Origin: an uncultured Chloroflexia bacterium
Lineage (GTDB): Bacteria > Chloroflexota > Anaerolineae > Anaerolineales > Anaerolineaceae
Assembly (NCBI GenBank): GCA_963704755.1
Contig: OY969938.1
Location: 4,020,001-4,052,000, forward strand
Direction: 5' to 3'
DNA: 32,000 bases
In this document: positions 4,234 through 31,864 of the stretch, in pieces
Numbering within the stretch: the first letter of the stretch is position 1
How the letters are laid out: each line of letters begins with the position of its first letter
The notes under the pieces: generated by a model
What the model was told of the DNA's origin: nothing
Seen by the model: only the letters and a program-made list of their open reading frames with translations
Database searches by the model: none
Made by a program: the position numbers and the translations under genes

Positions 4234-4239
4234 TTATCT

Positions 4240-4278: not shown

Positions 4279-4297
4279 TCGACCGGCAGGAGAAGGT

Positions 4298-5314: not shown

Positions 5315-5320
5315 GGCCGA

Positions 5321-6282: not shown

Positions 6283-6295
6283 ACAAGGAGTCACT

Positions 6296-7552: not shown

Positions 7553-7563
7553 GCAGAGGAGTT

Positions 7564-10991: not shown

Positions 10992-11000
10992 GAGTAAATC

Positions 11001-11931: not shown

Positions 11932-11939
11932 GAGGAAGA

Positions 11940-15616: not shown

Positions 15617-15620
15617 CGCC

Positions 15621-16508: not shown

Positions 16509-16535
16509 AAACAGGGTAGATTATAAACGATATTT

Positions 16536-16646
16536 GTAGCTGCTCGGGCCATCGTTATAAAGTTACCGAATTTGAGGTGTGTGCGAGGGTGAAGCCCTCG
16601 CACACACCTCAAATTCGGTTTTTAACCCGTTAAGCCGGGCAGCATG
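16536..16646. repeat. modular palindromic element, copy A (core type I)
   Basis: Outer repeats are GTAGCTGCTCGGG (16536-16548) and CCGGGCAGCATG (16635-16646). The spacers are 16 and 15 nt. The core hairpin spans 16565-16619: ACCGAATTTGAGGTGTGTGCGAGGG, loop tgaag, CCCTCGCACACACCTCAAATTCGGT (25 perfect bp). Confidence 0.8.
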
Positions 16647-16688
16647 TCCAAAGAGTTTTTGTTGCCAATGCAAATTTTCAGATTGTGT

Positions 16689-16705
16689 TACAATCCCGGC
16701 CAATG
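16689..16705 (+). promoter_or_regulatory. extended -10 (TGTTACAAT) placed 8 nt before the ATG; near-leaderless start
   Basis: The sequence reads TGT-TACAAT (16689-16694), then cccggcca, then ATG at 16703. No Shine-Dalgarno sequence is present. Confidence 0.4.
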
Positions 16706-17278
16706 AACCGCCAGATCAACCCGCGCCTGTTGGCGTCCGAACCCATGCAGCGCTGCAAATTAAGCCAGTGCAAGGGTGCTTGCTGCCTGTACGGCGTCTG
16801 GCTGGATGAGGTCGAGTGGCAGGATATCCTGGCCAACGCCGGCCTGATCCTGCCTCACATGCCGCCCGGCCTGGACCAGCCAGACGAATGGGTCGACGGC
16901 CGCCGCGATGCGGACGAGTTTTCGCAGAGCGGGTCGGTGATCCACACCCGCGTCATGACTGACAAAAAGCATTATGGCGGGACCGCCTGCGTTTTTTTAC
17001 GGGATGACCATAAATGCGCCTTGCAGGTCGCCGGCCAGGCCGCCGGGCTGCACCCCTGGCGTTTCAAGCCGTTTTATTGCGTTCTTCACCCGCTGGACCT
17101 GGACGAGCAGGGCCGCATCACCCTGGATGAGACTGCCGAACTGCTGGACGAGGAGGGCAGTTGCCTGCGCCCATCCGACCAGGAAATACTCTTACTGGAT
17201 ACCTTCGAAGAAGAGCTGCGCTATTTATTGGGGGATGAAGATTACCAGGCCTTGCTGGCGGGAAAGAATACGGCGTAA
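16703..17278 (+). CDS. Cys-rich protein, CxxCxxCC/YkgJ- or DUF3109-like putative metal-cluster protein
   Basis: MNRQINPRLLASEPMQRCKLSQCKGACCLYGVWL... plus later ...GGTACVFLRDDHKCALQ...KPFYCVLHPL match the Cys pattern of the UPF0153/DUF3109 clan (from memory). The GTG at 16685 lies inside the promoter-like sequence. Confidence 0.6.
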   Translation: MNRQINPRLLASEPMQRCKLSQCKGACCLYGVWLDEVEWQDILANAGLILPHMPPGLDQPDEWVDGRRDADEFSQSGSVIHTRVMTDKKHYGGTACVFLRDDHKCALQVAGQAAGLHPWRFKPFYCVLHPLDLDEQGRITLDETAELLDEEGSCLRPSDQEILLLDTFEEELRYLLGDEDYQALLAGKNTA

Positions 17279-17291
17279 ACTAAAAAGAGAC

Positions 17292-17402
17292 GTTGCTACT
17301 CAGGCTGATTCGGAAATTTGGGACGTTTTATTTGTTTCCCGCATGTTTGACTCGCGAAAAACAAATAAAACGTCCTTCTTTTTGGGGTAGCTGAGCAGCT
17401 CC
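17292..17402. repeat. modular palindromic element, copy D (core type II); probable bidirectional terminator
   Basis: Outer repeats are GTTGCTACTCAGG (17292-17304) and CTGAGCAGCTCC (17391-17402), with 16- and 15-nt spacers. The core spans 17321-17375: GGACGTTTTATTTGTTT pairs with AAACAAATAAAACGTCC (17 bp), plus 3 more bp beyond a 2x2 internal loop. TTCTTTTT follows. The element lies between convergent genes. Confidence 0.7.
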
Positions 17403-17415
17403 CAAGAAATTTGAT

Positions 17416-18855
17416 TTACTCCCCCTGGCCCAAAGAATAACCGCGCTGGCCGTCGAAAGTAAATAAATTTACTGTTTGGATAATCTCAAACCCGGCCGCG
17501 ACCACTCGCCCGAGCAAGGCCAGGATATCCTTGTTGGTCAGGGCCAGATCCTCGCTGGAAAAGCGGCAGCGCCAGTGGTCCGTACAAAACGTTTCCGGGA
17601 GCCCATCCGGGTACACCCGCACCCCGCGGTTGGTGATCAGGCCCAGCTTGAGGCAGCCGTCGTTCAACGCCTCCATGCGCCGGCCAATCACCTGCGGATC
17701 GCGCTCACCCTCGTCCCAATCGACGAACACATCTACCCCAACCAGCGTTTTTTGATGTTCGACTGCCGGGGTAAGTTTGAACTTAATTTCGCCTCCCCTG
17801 AAATGGGCCGGCGGTAGCCGCTGAGGCGCCTGGCCCAGGCGTTCGATGACCGCCTCCGCGAACCTGCCGGTGGTTACCTTCTCGCGGCTGACACCCGGGC
17901 GGTAAATATCGGCGGTGTGATAGCCGTCCTCCAAAGTGCGCAGCCAGGCATTCTGGATGGTCTCGGCGGTAGGCGCGTAGCCCAACTGGACCAGCATCTG
18001 GATGGCCGCCTGGAGCAGCCCGGAGGGGTTGGCAATACCCCGGCCGGCGATATCTGGCGCCGAGCCGTGGATGGCCTCGAACATCGAGGCCTGCCGGCCG
18101 ACGTTGGCCGAGCCGGCCAGGCCCACCGAACCGGCTACCTGGGCCGCCACGTCGGAGAGGATATCGCCGTACAGGTTCATGGTCACTACCACGTCCAGGC
18201 TTTCCGGGCGAGCGGCTGCCAGGGCGGTGCCAATGTCGATAATCTGGTGGTCGGCTTTGATATCGGGATATTCCTGGGCTACTTCGATGAACACGCGATG
18301 GAACAGCCCATCGACGATCTTCATGATGTTGTCCTTGGTCATACAGGTGACCCGTTTGCGGTCGTAAGCCCGCGCGTACTCGAAAGCAAAACGGATGACG
18401 CTCTCCGAGCCCGGCCGGCTGATAAGCTTCATGGCCTGAGACACTTCGCAGGTCTGCTGGTATTCGATCCCGCCGTATAAATCTTCTTCATTTTCACGGA
18501 CGATCACCATCTCGATGTTGGGAAACGCCGAAGCCACAAAGGGCATATAGGCCTTGCACGGGCGCACGTTGGCAAACAGCCCCAATGACTTACGCAAGGT
18601 CACGTTGATGCTCTTGTAGCCCCCGCCCAGCGGGGTGGTGATCGGCGCTTTGAGCAGGATGCGGTTGCGGCGGATCAGGTCCCAGGCCTCGTTGGGAATG
18701 CCCGAAGTGATCCCCTTGAGGAAAACTTTCTCGCCGATTTCGATCTCGTCATATTCCAGGGGCGCCTGGGCGGCCTGCAATATGTCGATCACCGCCCGCA
18801 TGATTTCCGGGCCAATTCCATCCCCATAGGCTACAGTAATCCGGGTTTTCTCCAT
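17416..18855 (-). CDS. icd: isocitrate dehydrogenase (NADP), long form with C-terminal extension
   Basis: The product has a beta-decarboxylating dehydrogenase core: MEKTRITVAYGDGIGPEIM...NLYGDILSD...GSAPDIAGRGIANP. About 140 extra C-terminal residues resemble the Thermus-type ICDH architecture. Confidence 0.85.
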   Translation of the reverse strand: MEKTRITVAYGDGIGPEIMRAVIDILQAAQAPLEYDEIEIGEKVFLKGITSGIPNEAWDLIRRNRILLKAPITTPLGGGYKSINVTLRKSLGLFANVRPCKAYMPFVASAFPNIEMVIVRENEEDLYGGIEYQQTCEVSQAMKLISRPGSESVIRFAFEYARAYDRKRVTCMTKDNIMKIVDGLFHRVFIEVAQEYPDIKADHQIIDIGTALAAARPESLDVVVTMNLYGDILSDVAAQVAGSVGLAGSANVGRQASMFEAIHGSAPDIAGRGIANPSGLLQAAIQMLVQLGYAPTAETIQNAWLRTLEDGYHTADIYRPGVSREKVTTGRFAEAVIERLGQAPQRLPPAHFRGGEIKFKLTPAVEHQKTLVGVDVFVDWDEGERDPQVIGRRMEALNDGCLKLGLITNRGVRVYPDGLPETFCTDHWRCRFSSEDLALTNKDILALLGRVVAAGFEIIQTVNLFTFDGQRGYSLGQGE

Positions 18856-18882
18856 TCGGCAGTCCTTTCGGTACGAGATGAA

Positions 18883-18925
18883 GCGTATCTGATTTGGGCG
18901 GCGAAGCCGCCCAAATCAGATACGC
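18883..18925. repeat. perfect 20-bp hairpin with GCGAAGC apex in the icd upstream region
   Basis: GCGTATCTGATTTGGGCGGC, loop gaa, GCCGCCCAAATCAGATACGC. AAAAATTATTTTTT follows on the + strand. It lies 27 nt upstream of the icd ATG, between divergent genes. Confidence 0.75.
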
Positions 18926-19061
18926 AAAAATTATTTTTTCAGCGGTTCTAAATCATACCTGATCCGAGTTAGATTATCCAGATATCTTTCCTTAACCAAT
19001 GCCCAAATCCTACAATTTTGATAGGACCAACCTGTATAGCTGTTGAGGCGGGCGTTCGGTA

Positions 19062-19076
19062 TATAATCAGCCTATG
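19062..19076 (+). promoter_or_regulatory. -10 box TATAAT 6 nt upstream of ATG (leaderless-type start)
   Basis: TATAAT (19062-19067), then cagcct, then ATG at 19074. There is no SD. The start is supported by an immediate signal peptide. Confidence 0.5.
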
Positions 19077-20162
19077 CCCAAAGCTAAAAAATGGTGGTGG
19101 ATTTGGCCGGCTGCGCTGATGCTGATCTTGAGCAGTGCGGCTTGTGAAGCACGCGGCGTGCCCGGCTCGCGGCTCTTGACTCCCATTGGACAGGTCGTTG
19201 TGGTCACGGCCACCCCGGCGCCGACCCTGCCCGCCACCGAAACCGCTCTGCCCGTGGATACGGCCGCCCTGGCGATCGCCGCCGCGCTTCCGAGTGAAAC
19301 TGCCCAACCCACATTTTCCGAAACGGCGCCGCCTACTACGGAATTATCACCGACTGCCAGCGAGACGGCTACTTTTGGTCCCAGCCCCACGGCTTCCCGC
19401 ACGCCCACACGCACCCGCCGGCCGACCAGCACACGCCTGCCCAGCCGGACGCCGCTGCCCAGCCGCACACCGACCTTGACCATGACCGCCACGCCCCCGC
19501 TGGCGATGATGCGTATTCAAAAACCGGGGCCGTATTCCAAAGTGTCCTCGCCCATCGACCTGGAAGCCCTGATAACGCCCGGCGACGATGGGTACATCTA
19601 CGTCCAGTTGATCGGTGAAGATGGCAGCATCATCACCCGCCAGGCTTTGGACTTCCACACCTATTTGAACCGCCATTTCTATATTAACCCGCATATCCCC
19701 TTCGATATAAAAGCCGCCTCCGAGACGGCCCGCCTGGAAGTGAGCATTCAGGACAGTTTTGGGCGGCCTATTTACCTGAGTTCTGTGGACCTGGTATTGA
19801 TGAGCCTGGGCAACCCGGAAATTTACCCCCAGCAAGTTGTGCAGGAGCCCTACCTGATCCGTTCCCCCCGGGATGGCGAAACGGTCAGTGGTGGAGTGCT
19901 GGCGGTGGATGGACTGATCGGGGCGGTCAACGACCAGCCCTTGCAGTTCGAGTTGATCGATGAAAACGGCCAGGTGGTCGGCTCGGCCAGCCAGGATATT
20001 TCCCAACCCTATGGGGACCTATCTCACGTGCCCTTTACCGTTTACATCCCCTATTCGGTGACCCAATCCACCAACGTCCGCCTGACCATTCGCCAGGATT
20101 CGGGCACGCGCATCCCCGGCACGGTCTGGCTGCAAAGCATGCTTTTGACCCTGGAGCCCTAA
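19074..20162 (+). CDS. secreted lipoprotein with Pro/Thr-rich linker and two Ig-like (Gmad2-like) domains
   Basis: Signal peptide with lipobox-like motif: MPKAKKWWWIWPAALMLILSSAAC. A ~100-aa P/T/S/R low-complexity linker follows. The C-terminal repeats (...PGPYSKVSSPIDLEA...YVQLIGEDGSII... and ...IRSPRDGETVSGGVLAVDG...FELIDENGQVVG...) resemble Gmad2-type Ig-like domains, recalled from memory. Confidence 0.6.
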   Translation: MPKAKKWWWIWPAALMLILSSAACEARGVPGSRLLTPIGQVVVVTATPAPTLPATETALPVDTAALAIAAALPSETAQPTFSETAPPTTELSPTASETATFGPSPTASRTPTRTRRPTSTRLPSRTPLPSRTPTLTMTATPPLAMMRIQKPGPYSKVSSPIDLEALITPGDDGYIYVQLIGEDGSIITRQALDFHTYLNRHFYINPHIPFDIKAASETARLEVSIQDSFGRPIYLSSVDLVLMSLGNPEIYPQQVVQEPYLIRSPRDGETVSGGVLAVDGLIGAVNDQPLQFELIDENGQVVGSASQDISQPYGDLSHVPFTVYIPYSVTQSTNVRLTIRQDSGTRIPGTVWLQSMLLTLEP

Positions 20163-20169
20163 AGAAAAC

Positions 20170-20220
20170 CGAAACGGAGGGGTATGACCGGGTAAAGCCC
20201 GGTCATACCCCTCCGTTTCG
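20170..20220. terminator. perfect 23-bp hairpin between convergent genes (terminator, at least for the minus-strand gene)
   Basis: CGAAACGGAGGGGTATGACCGGG, loop taaag, CCCGGTCATACCCCTCCGTTTCG. On the minus strand it is followed by GTTTTCTTT. On the + strand an A-tract precedes it. Confidence 0.7.
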
Positions 20221-20225
20221 AAGGA

Positions 20226-20972
20226 TCATTCCGAGGCAGTCAACTGGATAAAGCGGGGGTTTTCAGAAAGCGAGGCCAGGTCCGGGTCTTCGCGGGCCAA
20301 CTGACTGCCGGCCGGGAATAGCTCCAGGGCTTTTTCGAGCTCGGCCAGGGCCGGATCGGGTAAAGCGACCGTGGCATACAGGCAGGCCAGATCGTAGTGG
20401 CCCACCCCCTGGATCAGCGGGGTTGTACCGACCTTCTCCAGGTCCTGGGCAGCCATTTCTACCAGGCGTGTGGCACTGGGGGATGCCCCCAGCCCACGGT
20501 AGGCTTCGCATAGGTGCCCGAGCGGGTGGATGTAGCCATTGTTCAATATATAGCTGAGGAAAGGCATGCCGGGATGGGCCAGGTTGCGCGAAGGGTCGCT
20601 CAGGTCTCGCTCTTTGAACTGGCCAAGCGCATCGACAAACGCGATCATGGTATCCTCGGCCTGTTTTTTGATGGTAGGCAAGGAAACGTGAACGAATTCA
20701 CTGAAGTTTTGCCGGTTGACCATTTCATATTCCGGGTAAGCGGGTGGCTCTTGTCCACGGGCCAAATAGGCCATCACCTGGATTGCCCGCCGGCGCCAGT
20801 ACATATTGTGGGCCAAAACATCTTTGGGCGACCAGTTCGTAAAGGTCCCTTCCGAGCTTCGTTCGGATTCGCTCAGGCGGTGGAGAAATTCTCCCTCCGC
20901 CCGGTAAGCATGCCGGACGATCTCGATCACCTGTTTGACCAATGGATCCCGTTCCAGGATTACTTTTTTCAA
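20226..20972 (-). CDS. DinB/ClbS-like four-helix-bundle protein with TPR-like C-terminus
   Basis: ...FTNWSPKDVLAHNMYWRRRAIQVM... resembles the DinB/DfsB-type motif. The start appears to be TTG (20972-20970) after GTGGTGAAG. There is no in-frame ATG for 56 codons. Confidence 0.55.
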   Translation of the reverse strand: MKKVILERDPLVKQVIEIVRHAYRAEGEFLHRLSESERSSEGTFTNWSPKDVLAHNMYWRRRAIQVMAYLARGQEPPAYPEYEMVNRQNFSEFVHVSLPTIKKQAEDTMIAFVDALGQFKERDLSDPSRNLAHPGMPFLSYILNNGYIHPLGHLCEAYRGLGASPSATRLVEMAAQDLEKVGTTPLIQGVGHYDLACLYATVALPDPALAELEKALELFPAGSQLAREDPDLASLSENPRFIQLTASE

Positions 20973-21000
20973 TTCTTCACCACTTTCTTAAGAAAATAAC

Positions 21001-21142
21001 CACGGATGGGCACAGATGCACACAGATGATTTTTAAAAGGATTAATATCGTTTCGAAATTGTAGTTTTTGTGGGGTTTCGCCTCGCAAAAACTACAATTT
21101 CGAAACGTATAAAGAATCTATGTCCATCCGTGCTCATCTGTG
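21001..21142. repeat. hairpin F (21049-21107) flanked by five 10-bp-phased CACRGATG octamers
   Basis: The octamers are CACGGATG (21001), CACAGATG (21011) and CACAGATG (21021) on the left, and inverted CATCCGTG (21125) and CATCTGTG (21135) on the right. In the core hairpin CGTTTCGAAATTGTAGTTTTTGTGGGG pairs with CCTCGCAAAAACTACAATTTCGAAACG: 25 Watson-Crick plus 2 G-T pairs, with loop tttcg. Confidence 0.75.
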
Positions 21143-21151
21143 GCATTTTGT

Positions 21152-21571
21152 TTATTCGCCGATGATTTTGATCAGCACGCGCTTGCGCCGGCCGCCATCG
21201 AATTCGCCGTAAAATATCTGCTCCCAGGGGCCGAAATCCAGTTTACCGGCCGTGATGGCAACCACCACTTCACGGCCCATCACCTGGCGCTTCATGTGGG
21301 CATCGGCGTTATCTTCGCCGGTGCGGTTGTGCTGGTAGGAAGACACCGGCTCATGGGGGGCCAGTTTTTCCAGCCAACGGTCGTAGTCCTGGTGCAGGCC
21401 GCTTTCGTCATCGTTGATGAATACCGAGGCGGTGATATGCATGGCGTTGACCAGCACCAGCCCTTCCTGGACCTGGCTGTCCCGCACAGCCTGTTCTACA
21501 TCCGGGGTGATATTGACAAATCCCCGCCGCGCAGGGATGTTAAACCAAAGTTCCTTGCGAAATGATTTCAT
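21152..21571 (-). CDS. yjbQ: YjbQ/UPF0047 family protein (secondary thiamine-phosphate synthase-like)
   Basis: [29 protein letters not shown]...[30 protein letters not shown]...[41 protein letters not shown] is a characteristic YjbQ sequence. ATG 21571 follows AAGGTGGA. The ORF track's start at 21580 is a GTG inside the RBS. Confidence 0.88.
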
Positions 21572-21610
21572 CCGATCCACCTTTTAAGTTCTTTGTTTGG
21601 TCCATTGATT

Positions 21611-21722
21611 GTAACTGCTCAGGCAAGTGCGCAAGTCGAGGGTGTTTTTATTATTTTTTGTGCGCGAAGCGCACAAAAAATAATAAAAACACCCTAAACC
21701 TCTGCGGTAGCTAAGTAGTTAC
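21611..21722. repeat. modular palindromic element, copy E (core type II)
   Basis: Outer repeats are GTAACTGCTCAGG (21611-21623) and CTAAGTAGTTAC (21711-21722), with 16- and 16-nt spacers. The core spans 21640-21694: GGGTGTTTTTATTATTTTTTGTGCGC, loop gaa, GCGCACAAAAAATAATAAAAACACCC (26 perfect bp). Confidence 0.8.
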
Positions 21723-21734
21723 CATTGATTTATT

Positions 21735-21806
21735 GTAACTGCTAAAGACCCCGAAATTGAGGTGTTTGCGCGGGCTCTGCCCGCGCAAACACCTCAATTT
21801 CGGGGT
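21735..21806. repeat. modular palindromic element, copy B (core type I, left spacer absent, right outer repeat not evident)
   Basis: GTAACTGCTAAAG (21735-21747) directly abuts the core at 21748-21806: ACCCCGAAATTGAGGTGTTTGCGCGGG, loop ctctg, CCCGCGCAAACACCTCAATTTCGGGGT (27 perfect bp). Confidence 0.75.
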
Positions 21807-21980
21807 AAGTCGAAACCTCGCTGCCACAGTGCCTTTTTCCCTAATCCACTATTCTCCATTTTCTCTTCTCCCTTCCTCCGAATTTGTGGTACAAAATAGA
21901 GGACAGGAAATATGGACAATATCGATAAATATATATAATTAATTGTCCCCCTTGTCCGGGACAGTCAGGATGATCGAAAC

Positions 21981-24779
21981 ATGAATCTGGAAAAAGAGTT
22001 TCAGGGCCCCAACCTTGGCTATATTCTGGAACTTTATGACCGCTACTGCGAAAACCCCGCGCAGGTGGATGAAGCTACCCGCAAATTGTTTGCTCATTGG
22101 GAGCCGGCCCGGGTCGAGGGTTTGCCCCCTCAAGAATTCAATTTCCAGGCCCTGATCGGGGCCGCCAACCTGGCCCAGGCGCTGCGCGCTTACGGCTACC
22201 TGGCCGCCAGGCTGGACCCGCTGGGGACTCCGCCTACCGGTGACCCGCTGTTGAACCTGGATTTTTACAAAACGACTGAGGCAGACCTGTCCAGGCTGCC
22301 GGCCGGGGTCATCTTTTCTAAGGCGGATAGCCGCCCGGCAGGAGAAAATGCCCTCCAGGCTGTTCAAAGGCTGCGCTCGATCTACTGCGGGACGATTGGA
22401 TATGATTACGGCCACATCCGCATTCCGGCCGAAAGGGCCTGGCTGTATCAGGCCGCGGAATCTAGCAGGTTCCGGCCGCCGCAACTGCCCGTTGATGAGA
22501 AACGGTTGCTGGAACGCTTGAGCCAGGTCGAGGCCTTCGAGCTGTTTCTGCATCGCCTGTACCCGGGTAAAACCCGCTTTTCCATCGAGGGCCTGGATAT
22601 GCTCATCCCCATGCTGGACGAGATCGTTGGGGCGGCGCTGCAGGCCAAAATTTGCGCGATCCTGGTGGGTACCTCCCACCGCGGCCGCTTGAATATCCTG
22701 GCTCACGTCCTGCAGAAGCCCTACAGCGAAATATTGGCCGAGTTCCGCGACCCGCGGGGCCGCTCGATGACCTGGGGTGAGATCGGCTGGACCGGCGATG
22801 TGAAATACCACATGGGCGGCTATAAATCGCCCCCCAAGGGGGATGCCATCGACCTGGTCATCCATATGCCGGCCAATCCCAGCCACCTGGAGCAGATCGA
22901 CCCGGTCATACAGGGGATGGCCCGGGCGGCCAATACCGCGGTGGACCAGCCTGGCCCGCCGCAATACTATGAGAATGCCTCTCTGCCGATCCTCATCCAT
23001 GGCGACGCTTCTTTCATCGGCCAGGGCATCGTCACCGAAACGCTGAACCTGTCACGCCTGCCCGGCTACACCACCAGCGGCAGCCTGCACATCATCGCCA
23101 ACAACCAGCTCGGCTTCACCGCTAATGATAGCGAACTGCGCAGCAGCCTGCACGCCAGCGACCTGGCTAAGGCCTTCGAAATGCCCATCCTGCACGTCAA
23201 CGCCGACGACCCCCTGGCCTGTATCGAGGCAGCCCGCACCGCCATCGCTTACCGCCAGCAGTTCCACAAAGATTTCGTGATCAACCTGATCGGCTACCGC
23301 CGCTACGGGCACAACGAAGGCGATGAACCGCGTTTTACCCAGCCGGTCATGTACCAGAAGATCGACCAGCACCCCACCGTGCGACAATTATGGGTCAAAC
23401 AGCTTGGCGGGCAGGGCCTGGCCACGGCGGATGAGGCGGAGCAACTCCTGCAGAAGTATTTACAAAACCTGCAGGCGATCAACGAGAAACTGGACGCCGA
23501 AAAGGCCTTGGACGAGCCGGTGCCGCCGGTGCCCCCCCACGGTGCGGCTCAAAAGGTCAAGACGGCGGTCAGCCTGGACCGGCTGAAGGAATTGAACCGG
23601 GCCATGCTCACCTTTCCGGCCGATTTTCACCTCAACCCCAAGCTGAAAAAAGCCATCGAGCGCCGCCGAGAATTGCTAGAGGAACCCAACGCGGATAAGG
23701 TCGATTGGGCCAGCGCGGAAGAGCTGGCCTTCGCTTCGATCTTGCAAGACGGCGTTGCCATCCGCCTGACCGGCGAAGACAGCGCCCGCGGCACGTTCAG
23801 CCAGCGTCACGCCGTCTTTTTCGACGGCGAAAACAACGCCGGTTTCATCCCCTTGCAATCTTTTCCCCAGGCAAAGGCCTCCTTCGAAGTGCTCAACAGT
23901 CCGTTGAGTGAGGCCGGTGCGATTGGCTTCGAAGTGGGCTATAACGTCCAGGCGCCCGGACGGCTGGTCATCTGGGAGGCCCAGTACGGCGATTTTATCA
24001 ACAATGCCCAGACGGTCATCGATGAGTTTTTGCTCTCCGGGCGGGCCAAATGGGGCCTGACCCCTTCGCTGGTATTGCTATTACCCCACGGCAACGAGGG
24101 CATGGGCCCGGACCATTCCAGCGCCCGCATCGAGCGCTTCCTGGGGTTGGCCGCTGAAATCAACGTGCGCATCGCCTATCCTTCCAGCGCAGCCCAATAT
24201 TTCCACCTGTTGCGCCGCCAGGCGCTGCTGCTGCGCACCGACCCGCTGCCGCTGGTGGTCTTTACCCCCAAGGGACTGCTGCGCCACCCGCTGGTCGCGT
24301 CAAGCCTGGAAGATTTCACCGGTGGGGGCTGGCAGCCGCTCATCGATGACCTCGAACTCCCGGGCGAACGCGAACGCGTCAAATCGATGGTCCTGTGCAG
24401 CGGCCGCATTTATGTCGACCTGGCCGCCAGTGAGCTGCGCAAGGCCTATCCCAATGTGGCCCTGGTGCGGGTCGAACAACTTTACCCCTTCCCCGAAGCG
24501 ATGCTCGCGAAGATTCTGGCCGGCTACCCCGGTTTGGAGCACATCCTGTGGGTGCAGGAAGAGCCGCAAAACATGGGCGCCTGGGATTTTCTACACCCGA
24601 CGCTGCACCGCCTGGCCGGCAAAAAGCTGGCCCTGGATTGCATCAGCCGGCCGGAAAGCTCCAGCCCGGCGGAAGGATCATCCACTCTGCGCGGCATTAA
24701 CCAGCAGGCCCTGATCGAACAGGCTTACCAATTTGAAAAACAAGCCCACACCGCAAGTGTGGTAATCAAAAGAGGTTGA
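21981..24779 (+). CDS. sucA: 2-oxoglutarate dehydrogenase E1 component
   Basis: 932 aa. ...[41 protein letters not shown]... and ...[14 protein letters not shown]... are hallmark SucA segments. The E2 gene follows immediately. Confidence 0.93.
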
Positions 24780-24780
24780 C

Positions 24781-26016: not shown

Positions 26017-26031
26017 CTTTTTCGGCCGAGG

Positions 26032-28182
26032 TCAGCGGTTGGAGCGCAGCGGGCTGATCCGCTTGCGGGCCAGGAAGAATTCTTGCGAATTCAGCGGCGA
26101 TTCGCCATCCGCCGGGGTCACATACTGGAAAGTGCCATCCGGGTTCATCTGGCGCGCTTTGACGTTATCCGACAGGCCGACTTCCAGAATCTCATCGTGG
26201 ATGCGCTGGACCATACTTTTATCCTCGATCGGGAAGAGCACCTCGACGCGCTGGTTGAGGTTGCGCGGCATCAAATCGGCGCTGCCCAGGTAGATTTTTT
26301 CCTCGCCGTTATTGTGGAAATAATAGATACGGCTGTGCTCCAAAAAGCGTCCCACGATCGAAATAACACGGATGTTCTCACTCAACCCGGGGATCCCCGG
26401 CTTGAGGCTGCAAATTCCGCGTGTGATCAAGTCGATCTTCACCCCGGCTTGAGAGGCCTTGTAGAGCAGCTCGATCATGGGTTTATCGACCAGGGCGTTC
26501 ATCTTGAAGATCAACCGGCCGTTGCCATGGTTGCCCTGGTGCTCGATTTCCTTGAGGATCATTTCTTCGAAACGCTGGCGCAGGTTGATCGGTGCGATCA
26601 GCAGCTTGCGGTAATCATTTTTCAAAGAGTAGCCGGTCAGGTAATTGAACAGGTCGGTAGCGTCGCTGGCGATGTCCTCATCGCAGGTGAACAGCGAAAG
26701 GTCCTCGTACACCGTGGCGGTGATGTGGTTGTAATTGCCCGTGCCCAGGTGGACGTAGCGCCGGATGTGGTTGCCCTCCTTGCGGATTACCAGGGCGATC
26801 TTGGAGTGGGTCTTCAAGCCCAGCAAGCCGTAGGTCACGTGGACGCCTTCCTGCTCCAGCAGCCGCGCCCAGCCGATATTGCTTTCTTCGTCGAACCTGG
26901 CCTTCAACTCCACCAGCACGGCTACCTGCTTGCCGTAATCGCGGCGGGCCTGTAAAAGCGCCTTGACCACCGGCGAGTTCGATCCGGTGCGATAGAGGGT
27001 CTGTTTGATGGCCAGCACCTCGGGATCCTTGGCCGCCATGCGTAGGAATTCGATGATCGGCTGAAAGGAATCATAGGGGTGGTGCAGGAGGATATTTTTA
27101 TCGCGGATCGCCGAAAAAATGACGTCCTCGTCCGAATCGTTGTTCAGGCGCAGCGGGCCGGGCGTGTAGGGCACAAAAGGGTGGTCTTTCAGATCGATGC
27201 GTTCGATGCGGGTCAGCGCAATTACACTGCGCAGGCTGAGCGGGCTTTCCAGAACATAGACGTCGTTTTTGTCCACCCGTAAATTGCTGATCAGCAGATC
27301 TTTAAGATTGGAGGGCATGTCCTTTTTGATAATCAGGCGGACTACCGCTCCAAAACGGCGCTTGCGCACGTTGGTCTCCATCGTTTCCAGCAGGTCGGAG
27401 GCTTCCAGCTCCTGGATTTCCATATCGGCGTTGCGAGTGACGTGGAACAGGTGCGCTCCCAGCACATCCATCCCGGGAAAAAGCGCTTGCAGGTTGGCTG
27501 AAATCAAGTCGGCCAGCCAGACGAAATAATGGTGGTAGGGCACCGTGCCGTCTTTGCGCACACTGCCGGAGGAGCGTTTGATCGGGATAAGCTGTGGCAG
27601 CGAATTGGGTACTTTCACCCGGGCGAACAGCGGTTGGCCTTTGCGGCTTTCCAACATCACCGCCAGGTTCAGGCTAAGGTTGGAGATGTGCGGGAAGGGA
27701 TGGCCCGGATCGATGGCCAGGGGCGTTAAAACCGGGAAAACGATCTCGTTGAAGTAGTCGTTGGCGATCTCTTTCTGGTGGTCGGTCAGGTTCTTGTACT
27801 CGCGCACGTGGATCCCGGCCTGGTCCAATTGCGGCAGCAGGTCTTTATGCCAGACTTCGCGGGCTTCGGTCATCAACCCCAGGGCGACTTTGCGGATCTC
27901 AACCAATTGTTCGGCAGCCGTCATGCCGTCGATCGAGAGGTCCGCCACACCTTCCTCACGCTGCATGATCAAACCGCCTACGCGGACCATAAAAAACTCT
28001 TCCAGGTTAGAGCCCACGATAGACAGGAATTTGATCCGCTCCAGCAGCGGGTTGCTCTGGTCTATGACTTCTTGCAGGACCCTGCGTTGGAACTCCAACA
28101 GGCTCAGCTCGCGGTTGATATAAAGAGAAGGGTTCTCCAAATCGAACACAACCGGTTTTACTTCTTGTTCTTCCGTGGGCAT
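26032..28182 (-). CDS. ppk: polyphosphate kinase 1
   Basis: MPTEEQEV...NPSLYINRELSLLEFQRRVLQE... and later ...HSKIALVIRKE...LGTGNYN... and ...GRFLEHSRIYYF... are PPK1 hallmarks. ATG 28182 is chosen because the ORF track's 28257 start overlaps the upstream gene. Confidence 0.9.
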   Translation of the reverse strand: MPTEEQEVKPVVFDLENPSLYINRELSLLEFQRRVLQEVIDQSNPLLERIKFLSIVGSNLEEFFMVRVGGLIMQREEGVADLSIDGMTAAEQLVEIRKVALGLMTEAREVWHKDLLPQLDQAGIHVREYKNLTDHQKEIANDYFNEIVFPVLTPLAIDPGHPFPHISNLSLNLAVMLESRKGQPLFARVKVPNSLPQLIPIKRSSGSVRKDGTVPYHHYFVWLADLISANLQALFPGMDVLGAHLFHVTRNADMEIQELEASDLLETMETNVRKRRFGAVVRLIIKKDMPSNLKDLLISNLRVDKNDVYVLESPLSLRSVIALTRIERIDLKDHPFVPYTPGPLRLNNDSDEDVIFSAIRDKNILLHHPYDSFQPIIEFLRMAAKDPEVLAIKQTLYRTGSNSPVVKALLQARRDYGKQVAVLVELKARFDEESNIGWARLLEQEGVHVTYGLLGLKTHSKIALVIRKEGNHIRRYVHLGTGNYNHITATVYEDLSLFTCDEDIASDATDLFNYLTGYSLKNDYRKLLIAPINLRQRFEEMILKEIEHQGNHGNGRLIFKMNALVDKPMIELLYKASQAGVKIDLITRGICSLKPGIPGLSENIRVISIVGRFLEHSRIYYFHNNGEEKIYLGSADLMPRNLNQRVEVLFPIEDKSMVQRIHDEILEVGLSDNVKARQMNPDGTFQYVTPADGESPLNSQEFFLARKRISPLRSNR

Positions 28183-28219
28183 CGATCGCAACTCACTTTC
28201 TACGCTTTTCCTGGCCGGC

Positions 28220-29326
28220 CTACAGGTTCTTCCTGCGGGCGATGTTTCCCAACACAATCAGGGCCACACCCAAAAGAAAAACACCAATCAATATGCCCCA
28301 CACCAGGCGCGAGGAGCCGGCCTGGAATAAACCTGCCGTGCTGAGGTGGTTATTCGCCTCGGCCGTAGGTGTAAATTCAGGTGTGTCCTCTAAGGTTGGG
28401 GTGAGGCTGTCGACCTCAGACAGCACCGGCCGTGGGGTCAGGGTGGGGGCTTTCGTCGGCGTAACCTGGCTGTCGTCAGTTGTCGGGGTTAGTTGGGCTG
28501 TCCCTTGCGGTGTAGACTGGCTGGCTGGCAATGTTGCGGAGCCCAATACCGTCGCCCGAGCCGTGCCCGATGGTAATGGGATGACGAGCTTTTCGTCAGG
28601 GTAAACAGTCTGATCTTCCGGTGAAAGGCCGTTTACATTAAGAATATCCACAATTTTGACACCGTAGGCGATGGCAATGGCCCATAGCGACTGCCCATAC
28701 TGGACCTGGTGGATGATTCTGCCATCTGTGCCAGGTGTGGCTAAAACAACCGGAGCGATGAATTGCGAAATCGCTTCTTCAGTTGGCACGTCCGCAGGCG
28801 TTTCGCCCGGCGCCAATGTGTGAGCGGTGGTGGCCGTTGGGGCAGCGCCGCTGCCGGTATAAGCTGCCTGGACGATGTAGTACACCGAGCCGTCCGAGGC
28901 AGTGGCGACGCCGGCCCCGATATCCCGGTAGCTGCCGTTGACCATCGGGATCATATGATCCGCGTCCGACCAGATATAGGCAATTTCATCGATGGTCATC
29001 GGGCCGATGGCAAAGTTTTCGGTTGCATAGGCAATCGATCCTCCGCCGTAGCCGGCCGCCATAACCCGTCCGCGAACGTCGCCGATGTGCCAGGTCATAT
29101 TATTGGCCGCCATCGTTTCAGCAGTTTGCTGGGCTGTGCTCATCAAAATACTGTTCACGTTCAGGGCGGTCAGGCCGTTTCCGGCCCGGTCATTATTGAC
29201 CAATGCGATCAGATCGCTGGCGCTAACCTGGTTTTCTTGTTGGGCTCGGACGGTTCCGGGGAAAGTGAGGGCTAAAAGTGCCCCTAAGCAAACGAAAAAA
29301 CTCACCAATCTATGCCTGAATGTCAT
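28220..29326 (-). CDS. secreted CAP/SCP (YkwD-like) + LysM domain protein with P/T-rich linker and C-terminal TM anchor
   Basis: Signal peptide MTFRHRLVSFFVCLGALLALTFPGTVRA. A CAP-like region follows (...LIALVNNDRAGNGLTALNVNSILMSTAQQTAETMAANN...). The LysM domain is IHQVQYGQSLWAIAIAYGVKIVDILNVNGLSPEDQTVYPDEKLVIP. The C-terminal helix is LVWGILIGVFLLGVALIVLGNI. Confidence 0.75.
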   Translation of the reverse strand: MTFRHRLVSFFVCLGALLALTFPGTVRAQQENQVSASDLIALVNNDRAGNGLTALNVNSILMSTAQQTAETMAANNMTWHIGDVRGRVMAAGYGGGSIAYATENFAIGPMTIDEIAYIWSDADHMIPMVNGSYRDIGAGVATASDGSVYYIVQAAYTGSGAAPTATTAHTLAPGETPADVPTEEAISQFIAPVVLATPGTDGRIIHQVQYGQSLWAIAIAYGVKIVDILNVNGLSPEDQTVYPDEKLVIPLPSGTARATVLGSATLPASQSTPQGTAQLTPTTDDSQVTPTKAPTLTPRPVLSEVDSLTPTLEDTPEFTPTAEANNHLSTAGLFQAGSSRLVWGILIGVFLLGVALIVLGNIARRKNL

Positions 29327-29338
29327 ACGGTTATTATA
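29324..29338 (-). promoter_or_regulatory. -10 box TATAAT 6 nt upstream of ATG (leaderless-type start)
   Basis: On the minus strand: TATAAT (29338-29333), then aaccgt, then ATG (29326-29324). There is no SD and the -35 is weak. Confidence 0.45.
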
Positions 29339-29395
29339 CTGAACTCCCGAATTCTGGCTGAAAATTGATTTCTTAGAAATACGTCCGGCACCGGC

Positions 29396-31360
29396 TTAGA
29401 GGTTTTCTTCACCCGGTAGAGGCTGTTGAGATTGATATATCGATATCCGGTTCCGCCCACCTTCTTTGGCCTGGTACAGCGCCTGGTCAGCCTGGCCGAT
29501 CAATTGTTCGAGCAGGACTTGCTTACCCGGGTGGTAACAGGTCAGGCCGATGCTGATGGTGATAGTCGCCTGGCCTTTGGCGGTCATGACAACGATATTT
29601 TCGACCTGCCGGCGCAGTCGTTCGGCGATATCGGCGGCATCCTCGATACCGGTCTCCGGGAGCAAGATCACAAATTCCTCGCCGCCGTAGCGGCCGATGA
29701 TATCGAACATACGCAGGCTGGTGCGGCAGCGCGAAACCAACGCTTCAAGGACCTGGTCGCCAACCGGGTGACCGAAGGTATCGTTAATTTTCTTGAAGTG
29801 GTCGATATCGACCATGATCAAGGTCAGTTCCCGATTGTAGCGGAAAGATCGTTCGATCTCGCTTTGAGCCAGTTGGAAGAAATAGCGCCGGTTGTAGACC
29901 CCCGTTAGCGAATCGGAAATGGCCATTTCGCGCAGGCGATTCTCAGCCTGTTTGCGTTCGGTGATATCGCGAAAACTGAATAACCAGCCCATTTCTTCGC
30001 TTTCAACCATGTAGGGGGTCACGTTTAATTCGACGGCATAGCCGTTCTCAAGGTCGAACGCCTCGATTAAATTCTTGCCCGGGCGTTCGATCATGCGTTC
30101 GAGCAGGCTGTAATACATATTGGGATTGGTGATCTTTTGGGCAATCACATCCAGGGCGCGGATACCGGGCATGCGCGCCCAGTTATCGTTCAATTCAAAC
30201 ATCGCCTTCAGATGGCTGTTGCTCAAAATCACATTCATTTCACGGTCGATGACGAACATTCCACTTACGGTCGATTCGATCACCGCCCCGGTGAGCGCTA
30301 CGGAACGGCGCAGGTCTAGCAGGGTCTTCTTCTGTTCGGTGATATTGCGAAAAAGCAGCAGGTAGCCGGTCCGTTCCTTTTCGTTGTTAATTATCAGGTT
30401 CGCCCGGATCGAATAGAATTCTTCCACACCGCGTACGCGCAGGGCGATTTCTTCGGATTTCTGGTCATTATTGTAGCCTTCCGTATACCAGGATTCGGCC
30501 AGCGGGAGAATGTCACCAACTTTTTTGCCGATCAAACGGGGGAAGGTCATGCCGGAAATCGCCAGCGCAGAAGGGTTGGCATCGATAACTCTTTTTTGGT
30601 CATCCAGCACCAGGATTGCATCGGACATTTTCTCGATCAAGGTCTCGCGCGCAATCGGCACGATATCGAACAGGCGGAAACGGAACAGCGCCAGCCCGAT
30701 GACCAGGTTGCTGATCCCAAAGGTAATGGGGGTCAGCTCCTGCAGCTTAATCTCGACCATCCCGGTCGCCGTCACGATTGAAGTGATCCAGGGGATGAGT
30801 ATCGCAGCCAGGACGACCGCAACCTGGATGCGGTATAGCTGCGGTGCAGTCATGTAATTGACCACCAGGAACAGGCTGGCCAGGACAATCAAGGTGTAGG
30901 CGTAAATGGTATACAACCCAAAGGCCGGTCCGTCCACAAAAACGAGTTTGGGCAGGGTCTCGCTGTATTGGATAATGGGGTTGGTGCGAAATAAATGGGT
31001 AAATAAATCGGTCCAGACCAGCAGCAAAACCAGGATGGCCAGGGGTAAGAGGTATTTCCAGTTCAGCCGGCTCAGCGGAAATTCGCGATAATTATAGTTG
31101 AGCGCGAATCCCAGGTAAAACAATGGCGCAAATACCGCACCCAGGAATTGCACATTGTTCCAGAACAACATTGTTGAAAGCTGTGTGCTCAAAAGCTGCA
31201 GGGTGTAGGCGAGGGTCCAGATAGCCTCGCTTATGGCAATTAATGCAAAAGGAGTTGCAGCTCGAACATTTCGCCTGTGCCAGGCGATTCCTCCAACCCA
31301 TATTGTTATCCCCGCTGATACCAGATAAGGGAGGATCAGTAATAAATTCCGATAGTTCAT
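29396..31360 (-). CDS. membrane sensor diguanylate cyclase (N-terminal ~7 TM domain, two PAS-like domains, GGDEF)
   Basis: The N-terminal ~230 aa are hydrophobic helices. The middle has PAS-like segments. The C-terminal GGDEF domain has an active-site GGEEF and an I-site RMFD five residues upstream (RMFDIIGRYGGEEF). Confidence 0.85.
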   Translation of the reverse strand: MNYRNLLLILPYLVSAGITIWVGGIAWHRRNVRAATPFALIAISEAIWTLAYTLQLLSTQLSTMLFWNNVQFLGAVFAPLFYLGFALNYNYREFPLSRLNWKYLLPLAILVLLLVWTDLFTHLFRTNPIIQYSETLPKLVFVDGPAFGLYTIYAYTLIVLASLFLVVNYMTAPQLYRIQVAVVLAAILIPWITSIVTATGMVEIKLQELTPITFGISNLVIGLALFRFRLFDIVPIARETLIEKMSDAILVLDDQKRVIDANPSALAISGMTFPRLIGKKVGDILPLAESWYTEGYNNDQKSEEIALRVRGVEEFYSIRANLIINNEKERTGYLLLFRNITEQKKTLLDLRRSVALTGAVIESTVSGMFVIDREMNVILSNSHLKAMFELNDNWARMPGIRALDVIAQKITNPNMYYSLLERMIERPGKNLIEAFDLENGYAVELNVTPYMVESEEMGWLFSFRDITERKQAENRLREMAISDSLTGVYNRRYFFQLAQSEIERSFRYNRELTLIMVDIDHFKKINDTFGHPVGDQVLEALVSRCRTSLRMFDIIGRYGGEEFVILLPETGIEDAADIAERLRRQVENIVVMTAKGQATITISIGLTCYHPGKQVLLEQLIGQADQALYQAKEGGRNRISIYQSQQPLPGEENL

Positions 31361-31662
31361 TCCATTGATATTTCGATGTGCTTATCTAAATTTTGAGGCT
31401 GCCAGGTTTGCCTGGGAATAGCAGTTTTTGCGTTTTACGTAGTCAGCAGGTTCCGCCAAAAAACCACCCTTTGCAACCTAAGCTTGAGGAGAAATAAACT
31501 CCAATTATCATAACGGATTATCGGAATTTTGGGTTAATAGTTTTGCAAGGTGGGCAGCGGGGACTTGTTTAATCCAATTAACTTGTAATAACGGCGTTTC
31601 GCCCCCCATCCCCGCTTCTCCCCAAATCAAAACCCGATTTAGAGGAAAGGGCCGGATTTGTC

Positions 31663-31690
31663 TTGACATTCTAATCGTCGCAGCTAAAAT
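31663..31690 (+). promoter_or_regulatory. sigma-70-type promoter
   Basis: TTGACA (31663-31668), a 16-nt spacer, then TAAAAT (31685-31690). A palindrome AGTGTA-gatag-TACACT (31691-31707) follows immediately. The next + strand ATG lies ~190 nt downstream. Confidence 0.55.
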
Positions 31691-31745
31691 AGTGTAGATA
31701 GTACACTAAAAGACCCGACCAGAAGCCCTGGTCGATTTGTCGAAA

Positions 31746-31864
31746 TTGCGTAATTGCTCAGAATCCTGTTGAAAAGTCCCTGAATTTGAGGTGTATGCGG
31801 GGGCAAAGCCCCCGCATACACCTCAAATTCAGGTTTCTTACCCCCAGGTCGAGTAGTTACGCAA
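31746..31864. repeat. modular palindromic element, copy C (core type I)
   Basis: Outer repeats are TTGCGTAATTGCTCAGA (31746-31762) and TCGAGTAGTTACGCAA (31849-31864), with 16- and 15-nt spacers. The core spans 31779-31833: CCTGAATTTGAGGTGTATGCGGGGG, loop caaag, CCCCCGCATACACCTCAAATTCAGG (25 perfect bp). Confidence 0.8.

What the first reader, a model, noticed from the sequence alone, without database searches (positions are those of the whole stretch)
16536..31864. Family of modular ~111-bp palindromic intergenic elements with fixed geometry and interchangeable core hairpins
Five copies share one architecture, all in the same orientation on the + strand.
- Left outer motifs: A 16536 GTAGCTGCTCGGG; D 17292 GTTGCTACTCAGG; E 21611 GTAACTGCTCAGG; B 21735 GTAACTGCTAAAG; C 31750 GTAATTGCTCAGA.
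- A spacer of exactly 16 nt follows in A, C, D and E.
- The core hairpin is exactly 55 nt in A, C, D and E.
- A 15-16-nt spacer follows the core.
- The right outer motif is the imperfect inverse of the left: A CCGGGCAGCATG; D CTGAGCAGCTCC; E CTAAGTAGTTAC; C TCGAGTAGTTAC.
- The cores fall into two unrelated sequence types: type I GAAWTTGAGGTGTNTGCGNGGG (A, B, C) and type II GGRYGTTTTTATT... (D, E).
Conserved termini around a swappable, size-constrained palindromic core do not match any repeat class I can name (REP/BIME, ERIC, Correia, BOX, RUP, attC). No transposase or RAYT-like gene is in the window.
Basis: seen in the sequence. Interest (0 to 1): 0.8.

Follow-up and report, generated by a model that had tools for sequence, protein, structure and literature searches.

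The report
Miniature transposons with ISBst12-type ends
The five ~111-bp palindromic repeats are miniature, gene-less transposons (MITEs) whose ends match those of ISBst12-group (IS66-family) insertion sequences, so they belong to a familiar class of mobile DNA rather than a new kind of repeat.

Summary
Window copies A (16536-16646), D (17292-17402), E (21611-21722) and C (31750-31860) are 111-112 bp. Each has a 13-nt terminal motif, a 16-nt spacer, a 55-nt hairpin, a 15-16-nt spacer and an inverted terminal motif. B (21735-~21810) is truncated.

- E is flanked by a perfect 8-bp direct repeat, CATTGATT.
- In Anaerolineaceae genomes and in metagenomes the termini GTAACTGCTCAG...CTGAGYAGTTAC bracket 104-123-bp elements. 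Of 121 elements, 77 have 8-bp flanking duplications with at most 2 mismatches; the shifted-flank control has 0 of 121.
- The same termini and 8-bp duplication bound full-length single-gene IS66-family/ISBst12-group elements. Examples are a 1565-bp metagenomic IS with exact ends, Geobacillus pHTA426, and the published ISDge4.
- The "swappable core" is real: the scan returned 35 unrelated interior types. A transposase that needs only the ends would explain this.

One point is unexplained. The core palindrome stays perfectly Watson-Crick after the termini and flanking duplications have decayed.

Verdict: a new member of a known kind, of moderate interest.

The parts
16536..16646 (.). MITE copy A, type-I core, old copy. 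Left end GTAGCTGCTCGGG (16536-16548). Core hairpin 16565-16619 (25-bp perfect stem). Decayed right end CCGGGCAGCATG (16635-16646). No flanking duplication left. Lies between the divergent starts of pstS-like 15621-16508(-) and DUF3109 16703-17278(+).
   Evidence: (HMM E=2e-17)
17292..17402 (.). MITE copy D, type-II A/T-rich core. Left end GTTGCTACTCAGG. Hairpin 17321-17375 (20 of 22 pairs, 11-nt loop). Right end CTGAGCAGCTCC (17391-17402). No clear flanking duplication. Lies between the convergent 3' ends of DUF3109 and icd.
21603..21610 (.). Left copy of the 8-bp target-site duplication CATTGATT of copy E.
   Evidence: (read directly)
21611..21722 (.). MITE copy E, type-II core, youngest copy. 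Perfect left end GTAACTGCTCAGG. 27-bp perfect stem 21639-21695. Right end CTAAGTAGTTAC. Inserted 12 bp upstream of copy B.
21723..21730 (.). Right copy of the 8-bp target-site duplication CATTGATT of copy E.
21735..21810 (.). MITE copy B, type-I core, truncated. Left end GTAACTGCTAAAG directly abuts the 28-bp perfect stem 21748-21806. The left spacer and the right end are missing.
   Evidence: (HMM E=7e-15, core only)
31750..31860 (.). MITE copy C, type-I core, full length (111 bp). Ends GTAATTGCTCAGA / TCGAGTAGTTAC. 26-bp perfect stem 31779-31833. Flanking 8-mers match at only 4 of 8 positions.
   Evidence: (HMM E=3e-23, model 1-111)
21049..21107 (.). Possible degenerate relative of the type-I core (27-bp stem, 25 pairs). 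It has no ISBst12-type ends. It sits inside a different 142-bp palindromic element (20996-21137) whose arms are three 10-bp CACRGATGNN repeats.
   Evidence: (HMM E=0.026)

Best explanation

Each copy carries the 12-14-bp terminal inverted repeat GTAACTGCTCAGSC. That is the sequence found at both ends of full-length ISBst12-type elements, which encode a single ~450-505-aa DDE transposase (DUF6444 + zf-IS66 + DDE_Tnp_IS66).

Inferred mechanism: a transposase of that type, encoded elsewhere in the genome, binds the two ends, mobilises the 111-bp unit in trans and inserts it with an 8-bp staggered cut, which produces the 8-bp target-site duplication.

Because only the ends are needed, the interior is free to vary.

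In this window E is a recent insertion (intact end, perfect duplication). A, C and D are older copies with decayed ends. B is a truncated copy.

Shown here: the architecture, the target-site duplications, the identity of the ends with autonomous ISs, and the multi-genome distribution.

Inferred: trans-mobilisation in this organism, and the role of the central hairpin. The hairpin is kept as a strict Watson-Crick palindrome longer than the ends survive. The two candidate causes are arm-to-arm correction or selection on a strand-symmetric hairpin.
For: 1. Independent genomes. The type-I core alone (18-mer scan) retrieves 26 complete palindromes, mostly from one Anaerolineaceae MAG. Nearly all have GTAACTGCTCAG...CTGAGCAGTTAC at a fixed 111-bp span and perfect 8-bp flanking repeats, e.g. 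GACTCCTC, AATTGAAG, CTTATTTT.

2. Termini-only scan of metagenomes. It returned 126 elements of 104-123 bp. Of 121 with enough flank, 59 have identical 8-bp flanks and 77 have at most 2 mismatches. With flanks taken 20 nt further out, 0 of 121 have at most 2 mismatches.

3. Window copy E has the duplication CATTGATT.

4. Autonomous partners with the same ends and duplication length.
- Published ISDge4 (IS66/ISBst12 group): TIR 5'-GTAACTGCTCAGCA, 8-bp direct repeat, shown experimentally to transpose (PMC12898284).
- Geobacillus pHTA426 IS66-like transposase, flanked by GTATCTATTCAGCCC/GGGCTGAATAGTTAC and the duplication GACGAGTT.
- Metagenomic ISs of transposases P0067, P0027 and P0092.
- A clean 1565-bp IS with exact GTAACTGCTCAG/CTGAGCAGTTAC ends, duplication CTTTGCTG and one 493-aa transposase (L239).

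5. Interiors fall into 35 unrelated clusters under identical termini.

6. 78 of 83 type-I-like copies are intergenic.

7. No Rfam family matches.
Against: - No ISBst12-type transposase lies in the window. The rest of the 4.87-Mb source genome could not be scanned, so an active partner in this organism is inferred, not shown.
- Four of the five window copies lack a recognisable target-site duplication.
- No empty orthologous site was obtained. The nearest relatives are about 72% identical at protein level and not syntenic.
- Simple neutral decay of a dead transposon does not explain why core stems are far better preserved than the termini or duplications.
Confidence: 0.92

Rival explanations
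1. The central hairpin is the functional unit: a host-selected, strand-symmetric hairpin such as a bidirectional terminator, insulator or transcript-stabilising hairpin. The ISBst12-type ends are merely its vehicle. Solo hairpins in the window (18883, 20170, 21049) would be the same module without the vehicle.
For: - The core helix is paired in 96% of cells, and 22 of 24 pairs show double (compensatory) changes across 86 copies.
- Stems carry 2.7% mismatches per pair, against 11% per site in the termini and 24% in the duplications of the same copies (Fisher p = 4e-7 and 3e-14).
- A, B and C each have a different, perfectly paired apex although their ends have decayed.
- The type-I consensus has CTTTTTC-type runs 3' of the hairpin on both strands.
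- The pattern scan flags A, C and 20170 as terminator-like.
Against: - Location is not terminator-biased: 50 tandem, 19 divergent, 9 convergent. In the window, A, E+B and C sit between divergent gene starts.
- Stems of 25-28 bp are far longer than typical intrinsic terminators.
- The internal-clock test rests on 19 copies that were ascertained through one intact arm.
- Many MITEs with the same ends have no central hairpin at all.
- This reading adds to the MITE reading rather than replacing it.
Confidence: 0.2
2. REP/BIME-like palindromic units spread by a RAYT (IS200/IS605-like tyrosine transposase), not by a DDE transposase.
For: - The elements are intergenic long palindromes.
- Some hairpins occur bare, without the outer motifs.
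- Copy A starts with GTAG.
Against: - REPs are 20-40 bp, carry no terminal inverted repeats of this kind and make no target-site duplication. Here an 8-bp duplication is the rule.
- The ends equal those of DDE-type ISBst12 elements.
- No RAYT lies in the window.
Confidence: 0.02
3. A structured non-coding RNA or cis-regulatory RNA family transcribed from one strand.
For: - Very stable folds (z = -5 to -12).
- Strong covariation in the core helix.
Against: - No Rfam family matches. The only matches are sub-threshold generic miRNA-hairpin hits.
- In the core, G:T (45) and A:C (35) mismatches are equally rare, so there is no wobble tolerance on either strand.
- Copies occur in both orientations and in every kind of intergenic context.
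- The spacers do not pair well (47-51%).
- Target-site duplications show the copies arrive by insertion.
Confidence: 0.03
4. Integron-like attC recombination sites bracketing gene cassettes. A and D flank the single DUF3109 gene.
For: - A and D flank one small ORF.
- attC sites are imperfect palindromes of 57-141 bp with conserved ends and variable centres.
Against: - The ends do not fit R''/R' (RYYYAAC/GTTRRRY).
- No integrase gene or cassette array is present; the neighbours are housekeeping genes (icd, sucAB, pst).
- Insertion with an 8-bp duplication is not attC chemistry.
- The DUF3109 gene in relatives sits in other contexts without such sites.
Confidence: 0.01

Closest known systems
ISBst12-group insertion sequences of the IS66 family (ISBst12, ISDge4, the ISGka4-family element on pHTA426)
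   Same: - Terminal inverted repeat: GTAACTGCTCAGCA in ISDge4, GTAACTATTCAGCCC in pHTA426, and exact GTAACTGCTCAGC in metagenomic relatives.
- An 8-bp target-site duplication.
- Ends beginning 5'-GTAA, which from my own memory of ISfinder is typical of the IS66 family.
   Different: - The window elements are 111 bp against roughly 1.55-1.65 kb.
- They encode nothing and must rely on a transposase supplied in trans.
- Their interiors show no similarity to the subterminal regions of the ISs examined.
Classical bacterial MITEs: Correia/NEMIS (Neisseria), ERIC/IRU (enterobacteria), RUP (Streptococcus), MITEAba12, Nezha
   Same: - About 100-150 bp and non-coding.
- Terminal inverted repeats and a target-site duplication.
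- The whole element folds into a long hairpin.
- Dozens of intergenic copies, mobilised in trans by an IS transposase.
   Different: - Different terminal sequences, duplication lengths (TA or 9 bp in those families, 8 bp here), parent IS family and host phylum (Chloroflexota/Anaerolineae).
- One 12-bp end here is shared by at least 35 unrelated interiors across many environments.
REP/BIME elements with RAYT transposases
   Same: Abundant intergenic palindromes whose stems evolve by compensatory change.
   Different: REPs are shorter, have no such terminal inverted repeats and make no target-site duplication. They depend on a Y1 HUH transposase, not a DDE enzyme.

Membership tests
MITE (generic) | Small (under ~500 bp) with no coding capacity | tested here: met
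   The copies are 111-112 bp. No ORF is possible, because the interior is a hairpin.
MITE (generic) | Terminal inverted repeats | tested here: met
   The 12-14-bp TIR GTAACTGCTCAGSC is seen in the window and in 150+ external copies.
MITE (generic) | Target-site duplication of fixed length flanking the element | tested here: met
   8 bp: CATTGATT for E. Of 121 elements, 59 have perfect and 77 near-perfect flanking duplications, against 0 of 121 in the shifted control. A, C and D have lost theirs.
MITE (generic) | Multiple dispersed copies in a genome | tested here: met
   There are 5 copies in 15 kb of the window. Copies lie on at least 45 contigs of one Anaerolineaceae MAG, and several contigs end inside a copy.
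MITE (generic) | Presence/absence polymorphism (empty sites) at orthologous loci | tested here: inconclusive
   The closest DUF3109 homologues are at most 79% identical, and the one relative whose contigs were fetched (72% identical) is not syntenic. The only identical contig is the same strain (L235).
IS66 family, ISBst12 group (as parent of the MITE) | Ends identical or near-identical to those of autonomous ISBst12-group elements | tested here: met
   L239: a 1565-bp IS with exact GTAACTGCTCAG/CTGAGCAGTTAC ends. P0067, P0027 and P0092 ISs. pHTA426. ISDge4.
IS66 family, ISBst12 group (as parent of the MITE) | 8-bp target-site duplication, as for the autonomous elements | tested here: met
   IS duplications: CTTTGCTG, GACGAGTT, ATAAAAAG, CTTTTGTT, and CCTCGATG (published). 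MITE duplications are also 8 bp.
IS66 family, ISBst12 group (as parent of the MITE) | Cognate single-ORF transposase (DUF6444 + zf-IS66 + DDE_Tnp_IS66) in the same genome | not testable with these tools
   None lies in the window.
IS66 family, ISBst12 group (as parent of the MITE) | Transposase binds and mobilises the element | not testable with these tools
   This requires an experiment.
REP/BIME (RAYT-dependent) | 20-40-bp palindromes, no target-site duplication, associated RAYT gene | tested here: not met
   The units are 111 bp with an 8-bp duplication. No RAYT lies in the window.
Integron attC | R''/R' core sites (RYYYAAC...GTTRRRY), an adjacent intI gene and a cassette array | tested here: not met
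   The ends read GTAACTG.../...CAGTTAC followed by unrelated bases. There is no integrase, and the neighbours are housekeeping genes.
Rfam RNA families | Match at or above a family's gathering score | tested here: not met
   Only a tRNA passes in the whole window. The relaxed search gives only sub-threshold miRNA-hairpin look-alikes.
Intrinsic (bidirectional) terminator | GC-rich hairpin followed by a U-run, placed at gene 3' ends | tested here: inconclusive
   A hairpin plus T-run is present in A, C and 20170 and in the type-I consensus. Placement is not biased to 3' ends: 19 divergent against 9 convergent.

The most novel reading that the evidence does not exclude
The 55-nt core may be more than passive cargo.

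After insertion its two arms co-evolve, so it remains a perfect Watson-Crick palindrome while the transposon ends and target duplications decay. The cause would be either arm-to-arm templated correction or selection on a strand-symmetric DNA/RNA hairpin.

On this reading, hairpin cores, iterated-repeat arms and ISBst12 ends would be separate modules that get reshuffled. The same genome region holds solo cores and a core set in a different frame (20996-21137).

That would make these MITEs vehicles distributing a functional hairpin module, for example a bidirectional insulator or terminator, across Anaerolineae genomes.
Probability: 0.18. Interest if true: 0.55.

Novelty: new member of a known kind. 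Interest (0 to 1): 0.35.

Why it matters
- It turns an apparently unclassifiable repeat into an annotated mobile element, which can be masked or annotated in Anaerolineae/Chloroflexota genomes and MAGs. In the data seen here, several MAG contigs and one read-assembly contig end inside a copy.
- It links the element to a specific and very widespread transposase clade. ISBst12-type transposases gave about 8,000 hits (7,999 of the 8,000 candidates scored) at E <= 1e-50 in the protein collection. A perfect recent insertion (E) predicts an active ISBst12-type transposase in this genome.
- One 12-bp end is shared by at least 35 unrelated ~105-150-bp interiors across many environments. This shows clearly how little sequence a transposase needs.
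- The excess preservation of the core palindrome is a testable case of either intra-palindrome correction or host co-option.

Tried and rejected
- Exact-protein look-ups for the source contig. The ORFs as first delimited (197-aa DUF3109, icd) were not on record. With the right start, the DUF3109 protein is on a 4.87-Mb contig, but only a 2.4-kb read assembly identical to the window was returned.
- Search for a full-length IS among the 215 loci fetched around MITEs. Long TIR pairs with duplications gave only nested or tandem MITEs and an 866-bp non-coding variant. phmmer with an IS66 TnpC found only an unrelated classical IS66 in an alphaproteobacterium.
- D. geothermalis plasmids (NC_008010, CP000358, NC_009939) are not in the plasmid collection.
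- tblastn of a classical IS66 TnpC against plasmids was saturated by enterobacterial IS66 and gave no information on ISBst12.
- Empty-site test through DUF3109 homologues failed. The relatives are too distant and not syntenic.
- Literature searches for MITEs in Anaerolinea or IS66-derived MITEs found no prior description of this family.
- The arms of the bare hairpins and of the D and E cores have no close matches in any fetched locus.
- Considered and rejected: attC, REP/RAYT, an ncRNA family, and chance.

Full report
**What is in the window**

Reading the stated coordinates confirms the description.

| Copy | Coordinates | Length | Notes |
|---|---|---|---|
| A | 16536-16646 | 111 bp | type-I core, decayed right end |
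| D | 17292-17402 | 111 bp | type-II core |
| E | 21611-21722 | 112 bp | type-II core, intact left end |
| C | 31750-31860 | 111 bp | type-I core |
| B | 21735-~21810 | ~76 bp | type-I core, truncated |

- A, D, E and C share one frame: a 13-nt left motif, a 16-nt spacer, a 55-nt hairpin, a 15-16-nt spacer and a 12-nt inverted right motif.
- In B the left motif directly abuts the hairpin and the right motif is missing.
- The hairpins are exceptional. A, B, C and E have perfect stems of 25-28 bp with 3-5-nt loops. D has 20 of 22 pairs.
- DNA folding z-scores are -5 to -12.
- The outer 13-mer with up to 3 mismatches occurs 16 times against 5.2 expected, and no shuffle reached 16.
- The window also contains three long perfect hairpins without the outer motifs, at 18883-18925, 20170-20220 and 21049-21107.

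**Context**

- Positions 1-12.9 kb are a prophage structural block (portal, ClpP-like protease, HK97-type capsid) ending beside a tRNA gene.
- The rest is housekeeping: a pst phosphate-transport operon, DUF3109, icd, UPF0047, sucA/sucB, ppk and a GGDEF protein.
- There is no transposase of any kind in the window.
- DUF3109 homologues named by their sources are Anaerolineaceae or Longilinea, so the organism is an Anaerolineae-type Chloroflexota.

**The family exists elsewhere with the same geometry**

- I scanned one genome per species for one arm of the type-I core alone, saying nothing about the outer motifs. Dozens of hits fell in Anaerolineaceae MAGs.
- Around nearly all of the 26 complete palindromes the outer motifs appear at the predicted distance. 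The unit is GTAACTGCTCAG...CTGAGCAGTTAC, 111 bp in total.
- The unit is flanked by perfect 8-bp direct repeats, e.g. GACTCCTC, AATTGAAG, CTTATTTT, CTTATTTG.
- Window copy E has the same signature: CATTGATT at 21603-21610 and again at 21723-21730.
- A profile built only from external copies finds C at full length (E=3e-23), A (2e-17) and the core of B (7e-15).

**Terminal repeats plus target-site duplication make it a MITE**

- Of 121 with enough flank, the immediately flanking 8-mers are identical in 59 and differ at no more than 2 positions in 77.
- With flanks taken 20 nt further out, none of 121 has fewer than 3 mismatches.
- The duplicated 8-mers are 65% A+T.
- Of 83 classifiable type-I-like copies, 78 are intergenic.

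**The autonomous partner**

- A literature string search for the terminal 12-mer returned one relevant paper. [quoted passage not shown] It makes an 8-bp direct repeat and was seen to transpose (PMC12898284).
- I checked this on sequence. On Geobacillus kaustophilus pHTA426 the "IS66-like element ISGka4 family transposase" gene is bounded by GTATCTATTCAGCCC and GGGCTGAATAGTTAC, with GACGAGTT duplicated on each side.
- That transposase has thousands of homologues with the domain set DUF6444 + zf-IS66 + DDE_Tnp_IS66.
- Contigs carrying three of them show the same ends and 8-bp duplications.
- The cleanest case is L239. It is a 1565-bp element with exact GTAACTGCTCAGC...GCTGAGCAGTTAC ends, the duplication CTTTGCTG and one 493-aa transposase gene.
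- The window elements therefore carry the ends of ISBst12-group ISs and make the same duplication. By the standard logic for MITEs they are mobilised in trans by such a transposase.
- Whether one is present in this genome could not be tested. The intact end and perfect duplication of E predict that it is, or was until recently.

**Why the cores are "interchangeable"**

- The 126 termini-selected elements (111 distinct) fall into 35 interior clusters with no detectable similarity to each other. The types seen include:
  - type-I hairpins;
  - a CGAAAAAAGGGTGTGCG hairpin variant;
  - a GTCATTGCGAG...CTCGCAATGAC type;
  - interiors made of inverted arrays of 9-10-bp repeats;
  - a type II-like A/T-rich hairpin (L120, 112 bp, duplication TTTTTTGG), clearly related to window copy E;
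  - a 142-152-bp type with a doubled end, mirroring the second internal end-like site seen 33 bp inside the P0067 IS.
- The simplest explanation is that only the ends are needed for transposition. Any short DNA between two ends can then spread, and different ISBst12-type parents or captures seed different families.
- The "fixed geometry" is a within-family property. Type-I-like copies are 110-113 bp in about 90% of cases.
- By-catch elements not selected for size range from 68 to 866 bp, with modes near 110-122 and 140-152 bp.

**The core hairpin: shown and not shown**

- On 86 aligned type-I-like copies the 24-pair core helix is paired in 96% of cells, and 22 pairs show changes on both sides. 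The termini are paired in 75% of cells and the spacers in about 47-51%.
- Among core mismatches, G:T (45) and A:C (35) are equally rare. There is thus no wobble tolerance and no strand bias, which argues against a one-strand RNA.
- An internal-clock comparison used copies ascertained through one arm only (n=19). Mismatches were 24% per site between the two duplication copies, 11% per site in the termini, and only 2.7% per stem pair (Fisher p = 3e-14 and 4e-7).
- In the window, A, B and C have decayed or missing ends and no duplications, yet have perfect stems with three different apices.
- Taken together, this suggests arm-to-arm correction or selection on a strand-symmetric hairpin. The sample is small, and part of the "terminal mismatch" may be subfamily difference rather than decay.
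- A terminator role is suggested by T-runs after the hairpin on both strands. It is not supported by placement: 50 tandem, 19 divergent and 9 convergent sites. In the window, A, E+B and C lie between divergent gene starts.

**Comparison with known families**

- No Rfam family matches.
- The elements are not REP/BIME. REPs have no such ends, make no duplication and depend on a RAYT.
- They are not attC sites. The end consensus is wrong, there is no integrase, and insertion creates a duplication.
- They are not Correia, ERIC or RUP. Sequence, duplication length and parent IS all differ.
- They work like those MITEs, and they qualify as MITEs derived from the IS66 family/ISBst12 group.
- I found no prior description of this MITE family in the searchable literature. 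ISfinder itself could not be consulted.

**Verdict**

- Class: a new member, probably a large set of new members, of a known kind.
- Interest is moderate. The main value lies in annotation, the link to a very widespread transposase clade, the breadth of interiors sharing one 12-bp end, and the unexplained persistence of the perfect core palindrome.

Noticed in passing
window 1-12900 and 12960-13034: The first ~12.9 kb is a prophage structural module: portal 40-1302, ClpP-like prohead protease 993-2060, HK97-type major capsid 2070-3449, then ORFs without Pfam hits. It ends next to a tRNA gene on the minus strand, a likely integration site. It contains no MITEs or long hairpins.
   Followed up: partly
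window 18883-18925 and 20170-20220: Two solo perfect hairpins (20-bp and 23-bp stems, GC-rich apex, GAA/TAAAG loops) lack ISBst12-type ends. The second starts 8 nt after the stop codon of ORF 19074-20162 and is followed by a T-run on the minus strand (terminator-like). Its arm resembles the type-I core (CGAAACGGAGGGGTATGACCGGG against CGAATTTGAGGTGTTTGCGGGTG). No copies were found in any fetched locus.
   Followed up: partly
window 20996-21137: A 142-bp composite palindrome. A type-I-like 27-bp-stem hairpin (21049-21107) is flanked by inverted arrays of three 10-bp CACRGATGNN repeats, and there are no ISBst12-type ends. Similar iterated-repeat arms occur as interiors of ISBst12-ended MITEs in metagenomes (L122, L136, L137, L160, L171). 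This hints that hairpin, repeat-arm and end modules get recombined.
   Followed up: partly
L225, L227, L229, L232 (about 10-200 nt after the transposase stop): In several metagenomic contigs the right end of the ISBst12-like IS is interrupted exactly after CCAGGCTGAG. Unrelated sequence carrying an IS110-family (DEDD) transposase gene follows. This looks like site-specific insertion of an IS110-type element into the IS end.
   Followed up: no
L226, L231, L239 (right IS end): The stop codon TGA of the ISBst12-type transposase lies inside the right terminal inverted repeat (GGC TGA GCAGTTAC). The conserved end therefore doubles as the end of the coding sequence.
   Followed up: no
L123 1028-1179; also L128, L189, L199, L207, L210: A 142-152-bp MITE type carries two tandem copies of the end at one side (GTAACTACTCAGCG...19-30 nt...GTAACTGCTCAG...). 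The 8-bp duplication flanks the outer pair. This mirrors the second end-like site 33 bp inside the left end of the P0067 IS.
   Followed up: partly
L235 (Logan ERR11571143) = window 14942-17348: An independent read assembly is identical to the window over 2407 bp and stops exactly at the centre of the copy-D palindrome. Several contigs of the DAIQPZ01 Anaerolineaceae MAG likewise end inside a copy. In these cases assembled contigs end inside a copy of these repeats.
   Followed up: yes
L017 695-764: A 70-bp internally deleted copy keeps both perfect ends and the spacers but lacks the core hairpin.
   Followed up: no
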